This document shows positions 26,504-34,436 of a stretch of 64,000 bases of DNA, in pieces. The DNA is from an uncultured Actinomycetota bacterium. GTDB taxonomy: Bacteria > Actinomycetota > Actinomycetes > Mycobacteriales > Nakamurellaceae. Below the pieces are notes generated by a model. It ran no database searches. It was given only the letters and a program-made list of their open reading frames with translations, and was not told the origin of the DNA. Location of the stretch: positions 890,430 to 954,429 of the forward strand of contig CAWCVW010000008.1 in NCBI GenBank assembly GCA_963798965.1, read 5' to 3'. The translations under genes and the position numbers were made by a program. The first letter of the stretch is position 1. Every line of letters begins with the position of its first letter.

Positions 26504-27136
26504 GTGGACGTGACCGCGGTGGATTGGTTGACGCCCGATGAGTCGCGGGCCTGGCGTGCCCTGCAGCGGTTGCACACACCGCTGGCGGCGGCGCTCAACC
26601 GGCAGCTGCTGCGCGACTCCGCGCTCTCCAGCGCCGATTACGAGGTGCTCGTCGTGCTGTCGGAGACCCCTGAGGGTGTGCTCCGGGCCGGCGAGCTTGG
26701 CCGGGCGACCGGCTGGGAGAAGAGCAGGCTCTCCCACCATCTCAAGCGGATGGAGGCCAGGGGACTGGTCGAACGCCGCGACTGCGTGACCGATGGCCGG
26801 GGGTTGATGGTCGCCGTCACCGAGGTCGGCCGGACGGCGATCGCGGAGGCGGCCCCAGGTCATGTCGCGGCGGTCCGCGAGTACGTCATCGACGTTCTGA
26901 CGCGCGAGCAGCTGCGGGTGCTGGCAGAGATCGGCGAGGCAGTCGGTGCGCGACTGACGGCCGAGAACTGCCGGGCTGCCGCCGAGGGTTGCACAGGCGA
27001 CAGCGAGGGCCTGGCCGCGATTCGTGACGCGGGCGATGAGGTCGATGAGGTCGATGGTTGTGCAGCTGCCGACGATGACGTCGCGCGGACGGCCGTCAAG
27101 ACAGTGCCCACAGTCGAGCGCCTCCCGGCTCGATGA
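26504..27136 (+). CDS. MarR family transcriptional regulator with acidic C-terminal tail
   Basis: LSSADYEVL..LSE, WEKSRLSHHLKRMEARGLVER, DGRG, AAPGHVAAVR. Confidence 0.88.
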   Translation: MDVTAVDWLTPDESRAWRALQRLHTPLAAALNRQLLRDSALSSADYEVLVVLSETPEGVLRAGELGRATGWEKSRLSHHLKRMEARGLVERRDCVTDGRGLMVAVTEVGRTAIAEAAPGHVAAVREYVIDVLTREQLRVLAEIGEAVGARLTAENCRAAAEGCTGDSEGLAAIRDAGDEVDEVDGCAAADDDVARTAVKTVPTVERLPAR

Positions 27137-27990
27137 CCGATTCTGACCCGACGAACGGAGGGCCCGGTACGGGTGGATCCGTGGAGCGCCCGGTCGAGCC
27201 CGAGGCCATCGAAGAGACGTCCGAGCAACGTGGCACCGCGCCGGAGGCGAAGCCGGCAGGCGACGGGTCGTCACCAGGAGACCGAGCCGGCCTCGGCATC
27301 GCTCGACAACGCGGCCGGAGCATTGATCTGGTCAAGTCTCAACCTGCACTTGACGGTGATACTGAGTCCCTGGAGTCATCGGTCGAGCCGGTCTCCCGCA
27401 CGCGGCGGGTGCTGGCGGCAGGCGCCACGGCGCGCGACCGCGGTCTGCAGCAGCTCGTTGCGCTGCTCGTGCCGCTGATCCGCGCCACCCGGTATCCGAC
27501 GCTCGCGGTGGTCCTCATCGCGGCGGTGCCGGCACTTGCCGCCGTGGTGATCTCGCAATTGCGCCGGGGGCCCGACGATCCGTTCTGGCTGTTGCTGGGC
27601 GGTATCGGATTGGTGCTGTCCGGATGGTTGGCCCTTCGCCGCCGGCAGTTGCTCGCGGTGGCGAAGGACCCGGCCGCCCTGACCGATGCCCTGGCCGGCG
27701 TCATCACCGGGCGGGAGATGTGGGACCAGTTGGTGCGCAACGCCTCTGCCGGCAAGATCGGCGCCAGGGTGGTCCGCCGCTCGCGCCCTCTACGCATCCT
27801 CGGAGGGCTCTGGCGAGGGGTGCAGATGACCGGCGTGCTCGCCCAGATCACCGACCGGCCCGAGCTGCAACCGCTGTTGCCGGGCCGGTTGCGCGGGATC
27901 TGGTTCCTGGGTATCGCCTGCCTCGTCTCGGGTGTGGTGCTGACGGCGGCCGTGCTGGTCGAGGTCCTGCTCTACCTGCTCGGTGCGTGA
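27133..27990 (+). CDS. Hypothetical membrane protein
   Basis: 285-aa ORF with 3 hydrophobic segments; ATGA overlap with marR. Confidence 0.7.
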   Translation: MTDSDPTNGGPGTGGSVERPVEPEAIEETSEQRGTAPEAKPAGDGSSPGDRAGLGIARQRGRSIDLVKSQPALDGDTESLESSVEPVSRTRRVLAAGATARDRGLQQLVALLVPLIRATRYPTLAVVLIAAVPALAAVVISQLRRGPDDPFWLLLGGIGLVLSGWLALRRRQLLAVAKDPAALTDALAGVITGREMWDQLVRNASAGKIGARVVRRSRPLRILGGLWRGVQMTGVLAQITDRPELQPLLPGRLRGIWFLGIACLVSGVVLTAAVLVEVLLYLLGA

Positions 27991-28140: not shown

Positions 28141-28566
28141 ATGAGCCAGATCGACGAAACACAACCAGGGTCCGACGTCGACGACCGCTCGACCGACCAC
28201 GACGTGATCAGTGAGGGTGACGCCGGCAGCGGTCAAGACGACTGGCTGGACACGGGTTACAACCCGCCGGACCGTGAACCGCGGGTGCACGTGCCAACTG
28301 AGGACGAGGAAGAGCGCGGTGAGAGCCTGGACACCCTTCTCTCGGCCGAGGAGCCGGAGGTCTGGGTCGAGGACGAGAACAACTTGTTCGACGAGTCCGG
28401 CAACGAGGTCGGCGGTGATCGCTCCGGCCGCCTGGTCGATGCCGGGTCGGACGGCATCGCCGATACCGAGTCGGACCTCGTCGCCGAGGATGTCGGTATC
28501 GACGGAGCAGCCGCCAGCAGTGAAGAGGCGGCCATGCACGTCATCGACGAGTACGACCAGCGCTGA
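28141..28566 (+). CDS. DUF5709 family acidic protein
   Basis: LDTGYNPPDR, ESLDTLLSAEEPE, RSGRLV...DLVAEDVGIDG.AASSEEAAMHVI. AGGAGG RBS. Confidence 0.85.
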   Translation: MSQIDETQPGSDVDDRSTDHDVISEGDAGSGQDDWLDTGYNPPDREPRVHVPTEDEEERGESLDTLLSAEEPEVWVEDENNLFDESGNEVGGDRSGRLVDAGSDGIADTESDLVAEDVGIDGAAASSEEAAMHVIDEYDQR

Positions 28567-29050
28567 CCCTGCCCGTGGCGACAAGGCAAGGTCGCCGTTC
28601 CTGCCCGGGGGACAGGGCCCTGAGGTGATCCGTCGTCCCGGACCGATGGCGGGCTGACGCTGCGGACAGGCTGGCACATGCTGTGGCCGAGCCGCCGGCA
28701 CTGGGGCTGATTCGTGCGTTTTCGGCTGACGCCCGGGCTCTGACGGCTGCGTTGGCTCGTCCAGGGACCGAGCCATGGATATGGCGGCACAGTGCCCTCG
28801 CAGCTGACCGCTGAGCCATGTCTTGGTGACTGGCCCTTGCGCTCACAGGCGTGTCTGCCGGCTTCGGCGCGGCGACGAAGCAGACCTCGCGCCGCCGTTT
28901 TGACCAAAGGCGTGACCTGGCACGGCATGTCACGCAAGCGACCGATTCTTGTCCGGTTCATCGCGCACACCCGGCCACAGTCACGGATCGCGGCGGACAG
29001 GCCCTCGCCCGCCTCGCTGTCAGCCTTCCTCCGCTTCCGGCTGAAAATCG

Positions 29051-29079
29051 TTGCGATCGGTCTGCCTGGCCAGTACTTT
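29051..29079 (+). promoter_or_regulatory. Housekeeping-sigma-type promoter TTGCGA-N17-TACTTT
   Basis: -35 at 29051-29056, -10 at 29074-29079, exact 17-nt spacer. Confidence 0.65.
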
Positions 29080-29085
29080 CGGCGG

Positions 29086-29346
29086 TACACGAGGAAGGAG
29101 GTGGTCCCACGTTGAAGACGTTCAGGACACGTGAGGTGGCTGGCCGCTAGGCCGCCGCTCCCCGTCGGACCAGATCCGGTTCTCCGAACGAATCGGATAC
29201 CGCGCCCACCACCGATTCCGCCTCGAGCGGCGACATCGATGTCAGGGACGGCGGTCTGGCACAACCGGACAGTCACCCGACCCCCGGGCGGCCGACAATT
29301 GTCCAGTCGGCCCTGCTGAGCACATCAGCAGAGCAGCCCGGGGGTT
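29086..29346 (+). ncRNA. Candidate structured RNA carrying the micro-ORF
   Basis: Stems 29174-82/29190-98, 29279-89/29336-46 enclosing hairpins 29290-29312 and 29313-29331. No long ORF on the sense strand. Confidence 0.5.
29112..29150 (+). CDS. Candidate 12-aa micropeptide MKTFRTREVAGR
   Basis: AAGGAGGT at 29095-29102, 9 nt before TTG 29112; directly downstream of the promoter. Confidence 0.5.
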   Translation: MKTFRTREVAGR

Positions 29347-29371
29347 GTCCGTGCCCACGGCAGCCGCCCGA

Positions 29372-30799
29372 TCAGAGCCCGTGCTCGACCGGCACCGCCC
29401 CCCGCTTGGCCGCGTCCACCAGCGCGCTGTGATCGGCCTCGGTCTGGTCGGCGTACAAGCGGGCAAACGCAGCCATCGCCAAGTCGACCTTGTCCGATTT
29501 GCCCATGTAGCCGGCGATCATCGACGCGCCGCTCGTCCGGGCATGGCCCTTGGCCAGCAGGTGCCCGACGATGCCCGCGTAGTCGGCCAGCGCGGAACCG
29601 TCGATCGAGTCCAACGCGACGCTGCCCTTCATGTTGCGGAACTGCCGAACGTAGTACTGCCGGCCGTCGGCGCTGGTCCAGCCCAGCAGGGGATCGCTGA
29701 CCGTCTGCAACGCCTGCTGGTACTCCACCACCCGCTGGCCCTGGTGCGCGTGCCACGCCGATTCACCGTGCACGTACTTGGCCAGTACAGACCGCCGCGC
29801 CTGTTTGAGCTGCAGGAACACCACGTCATCCGGGCTGCTTCCCTCCAACAGCGCCACATAGGCCCGCAGCCCGACGCTGCCCACCCCGACGACCTTGTGC
29901 GCGATGTCGACGATGGTGTAGCCGCCGAGCGCGCGGCGCCAGTGCGGCGCCAAGGTGTCCAGGTAGCTGTCCAGAGCCTGCGCGAGCATGTCGGCATCCG
30001 CCGGACTGACCCTCGTGATCAGCGGCGGCTCCTCCACGATGTGCCGGCGGCCGTGGTCTTCCCGGGTGAAGCGGGGCAGTGCGCGGTCACTGGTCCTGGT
30101 CCTGGCCTGCCGGGCTGCTCGCTTGATCTCGGCGCGCAACGACCGGTGCGAGGTCGTGTCCCGCAACTCGTCGACGTCGACCCGTTGGTAGGACCTGGCC
30201 AGCAGCGGCATCTCGGACAGCTCGCGCACCTCGGTGCGGTAGGCGGCGACGCACTGCACGACCGCCGACTCGAGGTCGTCCTCGGTGGCACCGTTCTGCC
30301 GCCCGGCCACCCAGATGCTCGCGACCAGGCGCCGCAGGTCCCATTCCCAGCCGCCCGGGTGGGCCTCGTCGAAGTCGTTGAGGTCGATGACCAGATCGCG
30401 CTCGGGCGAGGCGTAGAAGCCGAAGTTGCCCAGATGTGAGTCACCGCAGATCACCGGGGTGATGCCGGTGGACGGAAGCCCGGCGACATCCTCGGCCATC
30501 ACGACCGCGGTTCCGCGCAGGAATCCGTAGGGAGTCGCCGTCATCCGGCCGACCCGCAGCGGGATGAGCCAGTCCAGCCGTCCCTCGTGCGATTCGTTGA
30601 TCAACTGCACCGGGTCGGGGCGATCGGCGGGCGGCGACCATTCACCCAACGAGCGGCGGGGCACCTTGCCGCGCAACGCTTTCCCCATCCGGTGTCGGTC
30701 CGAACGGGCCGTGGGACGACGCCGCAGCGACGCGAACGCCTGACTGTCGGCGGACGCCAGGACGACGTGGGAATGCGCTGACGCAACCGGATCGGCCAT
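29372..30799 (-). CDS. DUF2252 family protein
   Basis: RMTATPYGFLRG, CGDSHLGNFG, DLNDFDEA, KVVGVGSVG, FLQLKQA, YYVRQFRNMKGS. Confidence 0.92.
   Translation of the reverse strand: MADPVASAHSHVVLASADSQAFASLRRRPTARSDRHRMGKALRGKVPRRSLGEWSPPADRPDPVQLINESHEGRLDWLIPLRVGRMTATPYGFLRGTAVVMAEDVAGLPSTGITPVICGDSHLGNFGFYASPERDLVIDLNDFDEAHPGGWEWDLRRLVASIWVAGRQNGATEDDLESAVVQCVAAYRTEVRELSEMPLLARSYQRVDVDELRDTTSHRSLRAEIKRAARQARTRTSDRALPRFTREDHGRRHIVEEPPLITRVSPADADMLAQALDSYLDTLAPHWRRALGGYTIVDIAHKVVGVGSVGLRAYVALLEGSSPDDVVFLQLKQARRSVLAKYVHGESAWHAHQGQRVVEYQQALQTVSDPLLGWTSADGRQYYVRQFRNMKGSVALDSIDGSALADYAGIVGHLLAKGHARTSGASMIAGYMGKSDKVDLAMAAFARLYADQTEADHSALVDAAKRGAVPVEHGL

Positions 30800-33248: not shown

Positions 33249-34436
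<1,188 letters not shown>

What the first reader, a model, noticed from the sequence alone, without database searches (positions are those of the whole stretch)
29051..29346. Unannotated transcription unit: consensus promoter, very strong SD, 12-codon ORF and a multi-stem RNA
SEEN: in a roughly 800-bp gap lies TTGCGA-N17-TACTTT, then AGGAAGGAGGT 9 nt before TTG-AAG-ACG-TTC-AGG-ACA-CGT-GAG-GTG-GCT-GGC-CGC-TAG (MKTFRTREVAGR). A second SD-like GAGGTGG sits inside the ORF and pairs into a hairpin whose loop holds the stop codon (29136-29158). Downstream are a 9-bp hairpin (29174-29198), a long-range stem (about 29152-62/29245-54) and a clean three-way junction (29279-89/29336-46 enclosing 7-bp hairpins 29290-29312 and 29313-29331). 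No same-strand gene follows; the next gene is convergent. INFERENCE: a stand-alone micropeptide/sRNA dual-function transcript, or an RNA that titrates ribosomes through SD-like motifs. I cannot assign it to a named Rfam family.
Basis: partly seen in the sequence, partly recalled or inferred. Interest (0 to 1): 0.8.

Follow-up and report, generated by a model that had tools for sequence, protein, structure and literature searches.

The report
Ribosome-docking mini-mRNA (Ms_IGR-5 family)
The flagged stretch is this genome's single copy of Ms_IGR-5, a catalogued but functionally unexplained actinobacterial small RNA: its 5' end can pair with the whole free tail of 16S ribosomal RNA, and its 12-codon reading frame has conserved start and stop positions but not a conserved peptide.

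Summary
This scan has also met the family before on other DNA (27 earlier notes).

It is not Ms1/6S-like. In M. smegmatis, IGR-5 and Ms1 are separate loci.

Points tested here:
- **Copy number and spread.** It is single-copy in this genome and was found in 35 of 41 relatives. A pattern scan found it in 118 more Actinomycetota genomes.
- **Reading frame.** In all 148 copies the frame is exactly 12 codons. The start is TTG, ATG or GTG and never CTG. All three stop codons occur at codon 13.
- **Peptide.** Variation falls on first and second codon positions as often as on third. The ribosome's passage, not the peptide, therefore looks selected.
- **16S pairing.** RNA nt 6-21 pair 16/16 with the genome's own 16S 3' tail (about -27 kcal/mol). 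This is unique in 5 Mb apart from the antisense strand of the rRNA genes.
- **Fold.** The fold is supported by covariation.

The closest studied analogue is the rreB/rreR small mRNAs of alpha-proteobacteria. The biological role remains unknown.

The parts
29044..29079 (+). Promoter-like region: an A-rich stretch (GAAAA), -35 TTGCGA at 29051-29056, a 17-nt spacer and -10 TACTTT at 29074-29079.
   Evidence: Sequence. The same layout (AA, TTGnnn, TAnnnT) sits at a fixed distance in 145 distinct homologous upstream regions. The E. coli-type scan does not call it.
29087..29353 (+). Ms_IGR-5 RNA, about 267 nt. The transcription start is inferred at the A of ACAC (29087).
   Evidence: Rfam RF02471 match, 73.9 bits against a cut-off of 45, model positions 1-184 of 184. 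Single copy in the genome. The start is inferred from promoter spacing and the model start; it was not measured.
29092..29107 (+). Extended Shine-Dalgarno element (SD1): 16 nt able to pair with the entire free 3' tail of this genome's 16S rRNA (14 Watson-Crick and 2 G-U pairs).
   Evidence: The own 16S tail was read. Duplex energy is -27.3 to -27.7 kcal/mol, against -8.7 for GGAGG alone. It is the only 16-nt site in 5.03 Mb apart from the antisense strand of the rRNA genes. Positions facing 16S U residues vary only between A and G in 145 sequences.
29104..29128 (+). Hairpin P1: GUCC pairs with GGAC, and the SD-to-start spacer pairs with codons 3-4. The start codon lies at the loop.
   Evidence: The four outer pairs are invariant. 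The inner pairs show changes on both sides (helix 2).
29112..29150 (+). Micro-ORF: TTG start, 12 codons (MKTFRTREVAGR), TAG stop.
   Evidence: The frame is 12 codons in 148 of 148 homologues. Among the 118 pattern-found genomes the start is TTG 60, ATG 47, GTG 11, CTG 0 and the stop is TAG 107, TAA 6, TGA 5. Variation shows no three-base periodicity.
29133..29139 (+). Second SD-like motif GAGGUGG (SD2), inside the ORF and 8 nt before the stop codon.
   Evidence: It is invariant in the 30 relatives found with the Rfam model. In the 118 genomes of the pattern scan most of this motif was required by the search pattern, so those genomes do not test its conservation. In the fold it is paired with the downstream linker (-18.2 kcal/mol).
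29135..29277 (+). Long helix P2. ORF codons 9-12 and the stop codon (29135-29157) pair with 29249-29277. The 3' strand includes the linker GGACAGUCACC. The apex (29158-29248, containing hairpin 29174-29198) is of variable length.
   Evidence: helix 3 is 94.4% paired with 4 pairs changed on both sides; helix 4 is 78.8% paired. The apex ranges from absent to about 90 nt among relatives.
29278..29347 (+). 3' domain P3, a three-way junction. The closing stem is 29278-89/29336-47. Hairpin P3a is 29290-29312, with an invariant GUCC in its loop at 29301-29304. Hairpin P3b (29313-29331) is variable.
   Evidence: helix 5 is 98.8% paired and 9 of its 12 pairs show changes on both sides; helix 6 is 83.8% paired. 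The GUCC is invariant.
29348..29353 (+). 3' tail UGUCCG, with no U-tract. The 3' end is presumed to lie here.
   Evidence: This is where the Rfam model ends. No canonical intrinsic terminator was called. The M. smegmatis homologue is annotated as a 179-nt transcript.
28141..28566 (+). Upstream neighbouring gene (DUF5709). Not part of the RNA.
   Evidence: Pfam PF18970, E = 6e-18.
29372..30799 (-). Convergent downstream neighbouring gene (DUF2252). Not part of the RNA.
   Evidence: Pfam PF10009, E = 3e-130. It adjoins the RNA in only 8 of the 30 loci compared, all of them genomes of the same genus (G000 included).

Best explanation
Window 29087-29353 is the genome's single Ms_IGR-5 gene (Rfam RF02471). 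It is an independently transcribed small mRNA-like RNA of about 267 nt.

**Proposed mechanism**
1. A few bases from its 5' end, 16 nt can pair with the complete single-stranded 3' tail of 16S rRNA, so the RNA docks very tightly on 30S subunits.
2. Docking must open hairpin P1, which presents the TTG start codon.
3. The ribosome then reads a 12-codon frame. The second half of that frame, and its stop codon, are buried in the long helix P2. Each passage of a ribosome therefore has to unzip the RNA's central helix.
4. What is selected is this ribosome loading, transit and release at fixed positions, not the peptide.
5. By analogy with the rreB small mRNA, ribosome engagement probably governs the RNA's own conformation and lifetime.

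**Status of each part**
- Shown: family membership, conservation, pairing potential and the fold.
- Inferred: docking, translation and the structural switch.
- Unknown: the cellular role.
For: **Membership**
- Searches give 73.9 bits and full model coverage.
- The gene is single-copy.

**Distribution**
- It is present in 35 of 41 relatives, including 16 of 17 genera sampled (each from a different family).
- It is present in 45 of 151 genomes sampled across the phylum.

**16S pairing**
- The own 16S tail was read.
- All 16 positions can pair, at about -27.5 kcal/mol.
- The site is unique in the genome.
- Leader positions opposite 16S U residues are A or G only, and the position opposite C is always G.

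**Frame boundaries are selected**
- Every copy has 12 codons.
- The start codon alternates among TTG, ATG and GTG and is never CTG.
- All three stop codons are used at codon 13.

**The peptide is not selected**
- Codon 5 position 1, codon 11 position 2 and codon 12 position 1 vary freely, giving R/W/G, V/A/G/D and R/S/G.

**Fold**
- z = -4.81.
- 84.9% of cells are paired, against 30-45% when partners are slid.
- 28 pairs carry changes on both sides, against 13.1 in shuffles (0 of 500 reach the observed value).

**Literature**
- MS_IGR-5 homologues carry ribosome-protected reads in M. abscessus and M. smegmatis Ribo-seq (PMC4974804).
- The S. lividans and S. avermitilis homologues are expressed transcripts.
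- rreB has a 17-nt 16S complement and a 14-codon frame. It co-sediments with 30S, is weakly translated, and is destabilised by its start codon (PMC5711450).
Against:
- In rreB the over-long SD impeded translation. Over-expression gave no growth phenotype, and ribosomes greatly outnumber the RNA. A simple titration role is therefore unlikely, and real translation could be very low.
- Residues T6, E8 and V9 are invariant. RNA-level and peptide-level constraint cannot be separated at these positions, because the same bases form SD2 and helix P2.
- P1 partly occludes the 3' half of SD1.
- The simple scans recognise no canonical promoter or terminator.
Confidence: 0.6

Rival explanations
1. The 12-residue peptide (consensus M-x-x-x-R-T-R-E-V-A-x-R) is the functional product. 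The RNA is simply its highly structured mRNA.
For: - The start and stop positions are strictly conserved.
- T6, E8 and V9 are invariant.
- The third base of the Thr codon is free.
- Ribosome-protected reads are reported for homologues.
Against: - Variation is not concentrated at third codon positions. Chemically unrelated residues alternate at position 5 (R/W/G), position 7 (R/C), position 11 (V/A/G/D) and position 12 (R/S/G/H), and residues 2-4 are unconstrained.
- The conserved codons coincide with SD2 and with the P1 and P2 pairing, and a rare GCU codon is kept.
- The RreB and RreR peptides were unstructured, and over-production of RreB had no effect on growth.
Confidence: 0.12
2. It is a trans-acting base-pairing small RNA, or a dual-function RNA. 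Conserved single-stranded parts (the GUCC loop, the linker, C-rich stretches) would target other mRNAs, with the micro-ORF only tuning its availability.
For: - It was first recovered as an sRNA and is listed in Rfam as 'Gene; sRNA'.
- The GUCC loop of P3a and the linker are invariant.
- It has stand-alone gene architecture.
Against: - No target is known or was predicted here.
- The most conserved element is the 16S-tail complement, which points to the ribosome itself as the partner.
- The invariant loop can equally pair in cis with the GGAC of the ORF (-7.6 kcal/mol).
Confidence: 0.12
3. It is an Ms1- or 6S-like RNA that binds RNA polymerase.
For: - It has a long, rod-like fold.
- It is a conserved actinobacterial intergenic RNA.
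- The name is similar to Ms1, and this was my first guess.
Against: - In M. smegmatis, IGR-5 (ncMSMEG15794c, 5,862,475-5,862,653) and Ms1 (6,242,371-6,242,646) are different loci.
- Ms1 is syntenic with a HAD hydrolase gene. This RNA instead lies beside Aminotran_4 and THAP4-like genes, or beside DUF2252.
- No Rfam 6S match was found.
Confidence: 0.02
4. It is a cis-acting element of a neighbouring gene: a leader-peptide attenuator, or simply the (bidirectional) terminator of the convergent DUF2252 gene.
For: - P3 is a strong GC-rich stem about 25 nt beyond the DUF2252 stop codon.
- A short ORF followed by a stem resembles an attenuator.
Against: - No same-strand gene follows, either here or in most relatives.
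- DUF2252 adjoins the RNA in only 8 of the 30 loci compared, all from genomes of the same genus, whereas the whole RNA is conserved phylum-wide with other neighbours.
- It has its own conserved promoter.
Confidence: 0.04

Closest known systems
Rfam RF02471, Ms_IGR-5 (Actinobacteria sRNA; M. smegmatis IGR-5 = ncMSMEG15794c)
   Same: - The window matches the full length of the model above the curated cut-off.
- It shares the 5' leader, the micro-ORF region, the P2 base and the P3 junction with 30 relatives.
- It is a single-copy, stand-alone intergenic gene.
   Different: - This copy is longer: 267 nt, against 179-186 nt in mycobacteria. The difference is a roughly 76-nt expansion of the P2 apex shared with a few same-genus genomes.
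- It has left the widespread Aminotran_4 / THAP4-like neighbourhood and now lies beside DUF2252.
- The Rfam entry and the papers found do not describe the frame or the 16S complementarity.
rreB / rreR small mRNAs of alpha-proteobacteria (Hahn et al. 2016, PMC5711450)
   Same: - Both are stand-alone small transcripts with a sigma-70-type promoter.
- Both carry 16-17 nt complementary to the whole free 3' end of 16S rRNA, placed near the 5' end.
- Both have a very short frame with a non-ATG start (14 or 18 codons in rre, 12 here).
- In both, the RBS is partly folded into a hairpin and the genomic context is not conserved.
- The function of both is unknown.
   Different: - No sequence relationship was tested.
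- In rre the complementarity is perfect and runs into the first base of the start codon. Here it includes two G-U pairs and ends 4 nt before TTG.
- This RNA has a much larger 3' structured domain, with the ORF's 3' half buried in a long helix.
- 30S binding and start-codon-dependent decay were shown only for rreB.
Ms1 (MTS2823, scr3559), the RNAP-core-binding RNA of Actinobacteria
   Same: Both are abundant-type, conserved, structured intergenic RNAs of Actinomycetota, about 200-300 nt long.
   Different: - It is a different locus in M. smegmatis.
- It has different synteny, beside a HAD hydrolase.
- No micro-ORF or 16S complement is reported for Ms1.
- It is not the same family.

Membership tests
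Rfam RF02471 Ms_IGR-5 | Covariance-model score at or above the curated gathering score (45 bits) | tested here: met
   73.9 bits; E = 1.8e-14 over the window and 3.1e-16 over the local region.
Rfam RF02471 Ms_IGR-5 | Full-length match to the model, with its helices formed | tested here: met
   Model positions 1-184 of 184, not truncated. The helices are supported on an alignment of 29 homologues.
Rfam RF02471 Ms_IGR-5 | Expressed as a discrete small transcript | not testable with these tools
Homologues are reported as expressed in M. smegmatis (179 nt), S. lividans and S. avermitilis.
rre small mRNAs (rreB/rreR) | At least 16 nt complementary to the 3' end of the organism's own 16S rRNA, upstream of a short ORF | tested here: met
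   16 contiguous pairs with the own 16S tail, of which 14 are Watson-Crick and 2 are G-U. Hahn et al. required perfect complementarity, so this criterion is met only if G-U pairs are allowed.
rre small mRNAs (rreB/rreR) | The complementarity region extends into the first base of the start codon | tested here: not met
   Complementarity ends at 29107 and TTG starts at 29112. The spacer is 4-6 nt in all homologues.
rre small mRNAs (rreB/rreR) | Predominant association with 30S subunits, and start-codon-dependent instability | not testable with these tools
   These are experimental properties, shown for rreB only.
rre small mRNAs (rreB/rreR) | Sequence homology to rreB or rreR | not tested
Ms1 RNA | Located beside the HAD-hydrolase ('inhibition of morphological differentiation') gene, and identical to the M. 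smegmatis Ms1 locus | tested here: not met
   The neighbours here are DUF5709 and DUF2252. In other families they are Aminotran_4 and THAP4_heme-bd. IGR-5 and Ms1 are listed as separate loci.
6S RNA | Match to the Rfam 6S models | tested here: not met
   Only RF02471 matched the region, even at E <= 1.

The most novel reading that the evidence does not exclude
Ms_IGR-5 RNAs may be dedicated partners of the small ribosomal subunit: RNAs that occupy the entire 16S 3' tail and are cleared only by a short, obligatory round of translation. Possible roles include testing or licensing newly made or idle 30S subunits, protecting the tail, or temporarily withdrawing the anti-Shine-Dalgarno sequence and so shifting the balance between SD-led and leaderless translation, which is common in Actinobacteria. 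That would be a new functional class of ribosome-directed RNA, shared in principle with rre genes.
Probability: 0.15. Interest if true: 0.8.

Novelty: new member of a known kind. Interest (0 to 1): 0.35.

Why it matters
The locus itself is ordinary: it is one more copy of a catalogued RNA family. The family is nevertheless worth attention.

- It is single-copy in this genome and present in nearly all complete genomes of this order, and it is widespread in Actinomycetota, including mycobacteria and streptomycetes.
- It carries the longest possible ribosome-binding sequence in the genome.
- Evolution has preserved where a ribosome starts and stops on it, but not what peptide is made.

No function has been assigned to it or to the analogous rre genes. 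The tests needed are simple and can be done in laboratory strains such as M. smegmatis mc2 155 or S. coelicolor.

Tried and rejected
1. **Ms1 identity.** My first guess was that Ms_IGR-5 is Ms1/scr3559. I rejected it because the synteny differs and M. smegmatis has separate loci for the two.
2. **5'-3' end pairing.** The minimum-energy fold pairs CACG with CGUG (helix P0). Only 56.9% of cells are paired across homologues, so this is not supported.
The hairpin with the stop codon in its loop is not conserved. The stop lies in helix P2.
4. **E. coli-type scans.** The promoter and terminator scan found nothing.
5. **Lost gene in the upstream gap.** I looked in the 480-nt upstream gap for a remnant of the extra gene that some relatives carry there. 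None was found.
6. **Other long 16S-tail complements.** Sites of 14-15 nt elsewhere in the genome have no fitting short-ORF architecture and were not pursued.
7. **Earlier notes by sequence.** That look-up returned nothing; the look-up by words did return notes.
9. **Original paper.** Li et al. 2013 is not held in the library.
10. **Naming the organism.** The named loci with the most similar RNA are Geodermatophilaceae (Blastococcus, Modestobacter, Geodermatophilus).

Full report
**What is there**

- TTGCGA is at 29051-56, followed by 17 nt and TACTTT at 29074-79.
- AGGAAGGAGGT is at 29092-29102, 9 nt before TTG at 29112.
- A 12-codon frame ends in TAG at 29148-50.
- A second GAGGTGG is at 29133-39.

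The unit lies in an 805-bp gap between a DUF5709 gene (28141-28566, +) and a convergent DUF2252 gene (29372-30799, -).

The RNA strand folds far better than shuffled controls: -133 kcal/mol, z = -4.81, and none of 200 shuffles does as well.

**It is a known family**

A scan of the window against Rfam gives a full-length match of 29087-29353 (+) to RF02471, Ms_IGR-5 ('Actinobacteria sRNA'). The score is 73.9 bits against a cut-off of 45, with E = 1.8e-14.

The genome has one copy. The family is found in 35 of 41 sampled relatives, including 16 of 17 genera sampled (one per family). All five same-genus genomes without a match are 79-93% complete. Across the phylum, 45 of 151 sampled genomes match, 23 of them above the cut-off; the genomes listed without a match are mostly small, 1.3-3.7 Mb.

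I first suspected identity with Ms1, the RNA-polymerase-binding RNA. That is wrong.
- Ms1 lies beside a HAD-hydrolase gene.
- In M. smegmatis, IGR-5 (ncMSMEG15794c, 179 nt, 5,862,475-5,862,653) and Ms1 (6,242,371-6,242,646) are separate entries of the same table.

**The micro-ORF is conserved as a frame, not as a peptide**

In all 30 homologues from relatives, a start codon lies exactly five codons before an invariant ACN-CGU-GAG-GUG, and a stop lies at codon 13.

A degenerate pattern left free the first base of the start codon, codons 2-5, and everything after codon 9. They include Mycobacterium, Streptomyces, Micromonospora, Nocardioides, Cellulomonas, Kineococcus, Parafrankia, Geodermatophilus, Amycolatopsis and Actinomadura. 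In these genomes:
- the free first base gives TTG 60, ATG 47, GTG 11 and CTG 0;
- the frame is 12 codons in 118 of 118;
- the stop is TAG 107, TAA 6, TGA 5, so all three stop codons occur and a sense codon never does.

The variation has no three-base periodicity.
- Codon 5 varies at position 1 (R/W/G).
- Codon 7 varies at position 1 (R/C).
- Codon 11 varies at position 2 (V/A/G/D).
- Codon 12 varies at position 1 (R/S/G/H).
- Codons 2-4 are unconstrained.

The bases that are fixed are the ones that form RNA helices or SD-like motifs. Selection therefore acts on where a ribosome starts and stops, and on the RNA, not on the peptide.

**The 5' end matches the ribosome's mRNA-docking tail**

The genome's own 16S genes end in GGAUCACCUCCUUUCU. 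RNA nt 6-21 (29092-29107) can pair with all 16 of these bases: 14 Watson-Crick and 2 G-U pairs, at about -27.5 kcal/mol. A plain GGAGG gives -8.7 kcal/mol.

In 5.03 Mb this is the only 16-nt site apart from the antisense strand of the three rRNA operons.

Among 145 distinct homologous leaders, the three positions that face 16S U residues are A or G only. The position that faces C is always G. The base opposite the terminal U is free. That pattern is what pairing with an unchanging partner predicts.

**The fold**

I counted pairs on an alignment of 29 homologues (A2), using a structure taken from this window's fold.
- 84.9% of cells are paired, against 30-45% when partners are slid by 1-3 columns.
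- 28 pairs carry changes on both sides, against 13.1 +/- 2.1 in shuffles (0 of 500 reach the observed value).

The individual helices are as follows.
- **P1 (29104-29128)** pairs the SD-to-start spacer with codons 3-4 and places the start codon at the loop.
- **P2** pairs codons 9-12 and the stop codon (29135-29157) with 29249-29277. Compensatory changes occur here, for example G-C to U-A and C-G to U-A. The P2 apex is a variable expansion, and it is about 76 nt longer here than in the model.
- **P3 (29278-89/29336-47)** is 98.8% paired, and 9 of its 12 pairs covary. It closes a three-way junction.
- **P3a**, one hairpin of that junction, has a loop with an invariant GUCC.

The linker strand of P2 (GGACAGUCACC) resembles the 16S tail and pairs with the internal GAGGUGG at -18.2 kcal/mol.

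**Transcription signals**

The A-rich stretch, the TTGnnn element and the TAnnnT element keep their spacing in homologues, and the conserved ACAC follows 6-7 nt after the -10. The start at 29087 is inferred from this, not measured.

The E. coli-type scan calls neither a promoter nor a U-tract terminator, so 'consensus promoter' overstates the case.

**Context**

DUF2252 adjoins the RNA in only 8 of the 30 loci compared, all of them genomes of the same genus.

In many other families the RNA lies after a class IV aminotransferase gene and before a convergent THAP4-like haem-binding gene. GCV_T-like and rhodanese genes lie nearby.

The RNA is therefore a self-contained, movable gene. It is not a leader and not the terminator of DUF2252.

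**How it probably works**

The closest studied case is rreB of Bradyrhizobium (PMC5711450).
- It is a 165-nt small mRNA with 17 nt complementary to the 16S 3' end and a 14-codon GTG frame.
- It co-sediments with 30S subunits.
- It is translated only weakly, because of the over-long SD and the GTG start.
- It becomes more stable when its start codon is removed.
- Its role is unknown.

For Ms_IGR-5, a paper reports ribosome-protected reads in M. abscessus and M. smegmatis (PMC4974804).

My best reading, at about 0.6, has four steps.
1. The RNA docks on 30S through the 16S tail, which opens P1.
2. A ribosome then reads the 12 codons and must unzip P2.
3. It terminates with the internal SD-like motif placed about 6 nt behind the P-site codon.
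4. This cycle controls the RNA's conformation and decay.

The pairing potential, the conservation and the fold are shown. Docking, translation and switching are inferred. The cellular role is unknown.

**Limits**

The original description (Li et al. 2013) is not in the library. I could not name the genus; the named loci with the most similar RNA are Geodermatophilaceae.

**Earlier notes of this scan**

A look-up by words returned 27 earlier findings on this family in other genomes.
- One note supplied the 'rre' lead. I then read that paper.
- One supplied the ncMSMEG15794c lead. I checked it in the paper's supplement.
- Another reached the same 'ribosome loading, not the peptide' reading. I tested that independently here.

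**Verdict**

This is a real feature and was correctly observed. It is a new member of a known Rfam family, and the scan has already met that family repeatedly.

Noticed in passing
window 33401-33605 (+): A full-length c-di-AMP riboswitch (ydaO/yuaA leader, RF00379; 48.9 bits against a cut-off of 38).
   Followed up: no
window 28567-29043: About 480 nt between the DUF5709 gene and the RNA's promoter carry no Rfam match. Close relatives have either an 83-nt gap here or an extra gene of about 290-315 aa. No remnant of that gene is detectable.
   Followed up: partly
window 27133-27990 (+): A 285-aa ORF conserved in a same-genus relative has no Pfam family at E <= 0.001.
   Followed up: no
window 28257-29276 (-): A 339-aa open frame on the opposite strand overlaps the RNA gene. 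It is probably a shadow frame of GC-rich DNA.
   Followed up: no
G001:C101:3340-3430 and G061 (two places): One same-genus genome shows a second, partial match of 44.7 bits, just below the 45-bit cut-off. One distant genome shows two matches, both below the cut-off (43.9 and 41.1 bits). These could be extra or truncated copies.
   Followed up: no
phylum sample: In this sample, 22 genomes have matches below the curated cut-off (E from 1e-8 to 1e-3). All are from other classes of the phylum and all span model positions 1-184. The Rfam model therefore seems to under-detect divergent relatives.
   Followed up: no
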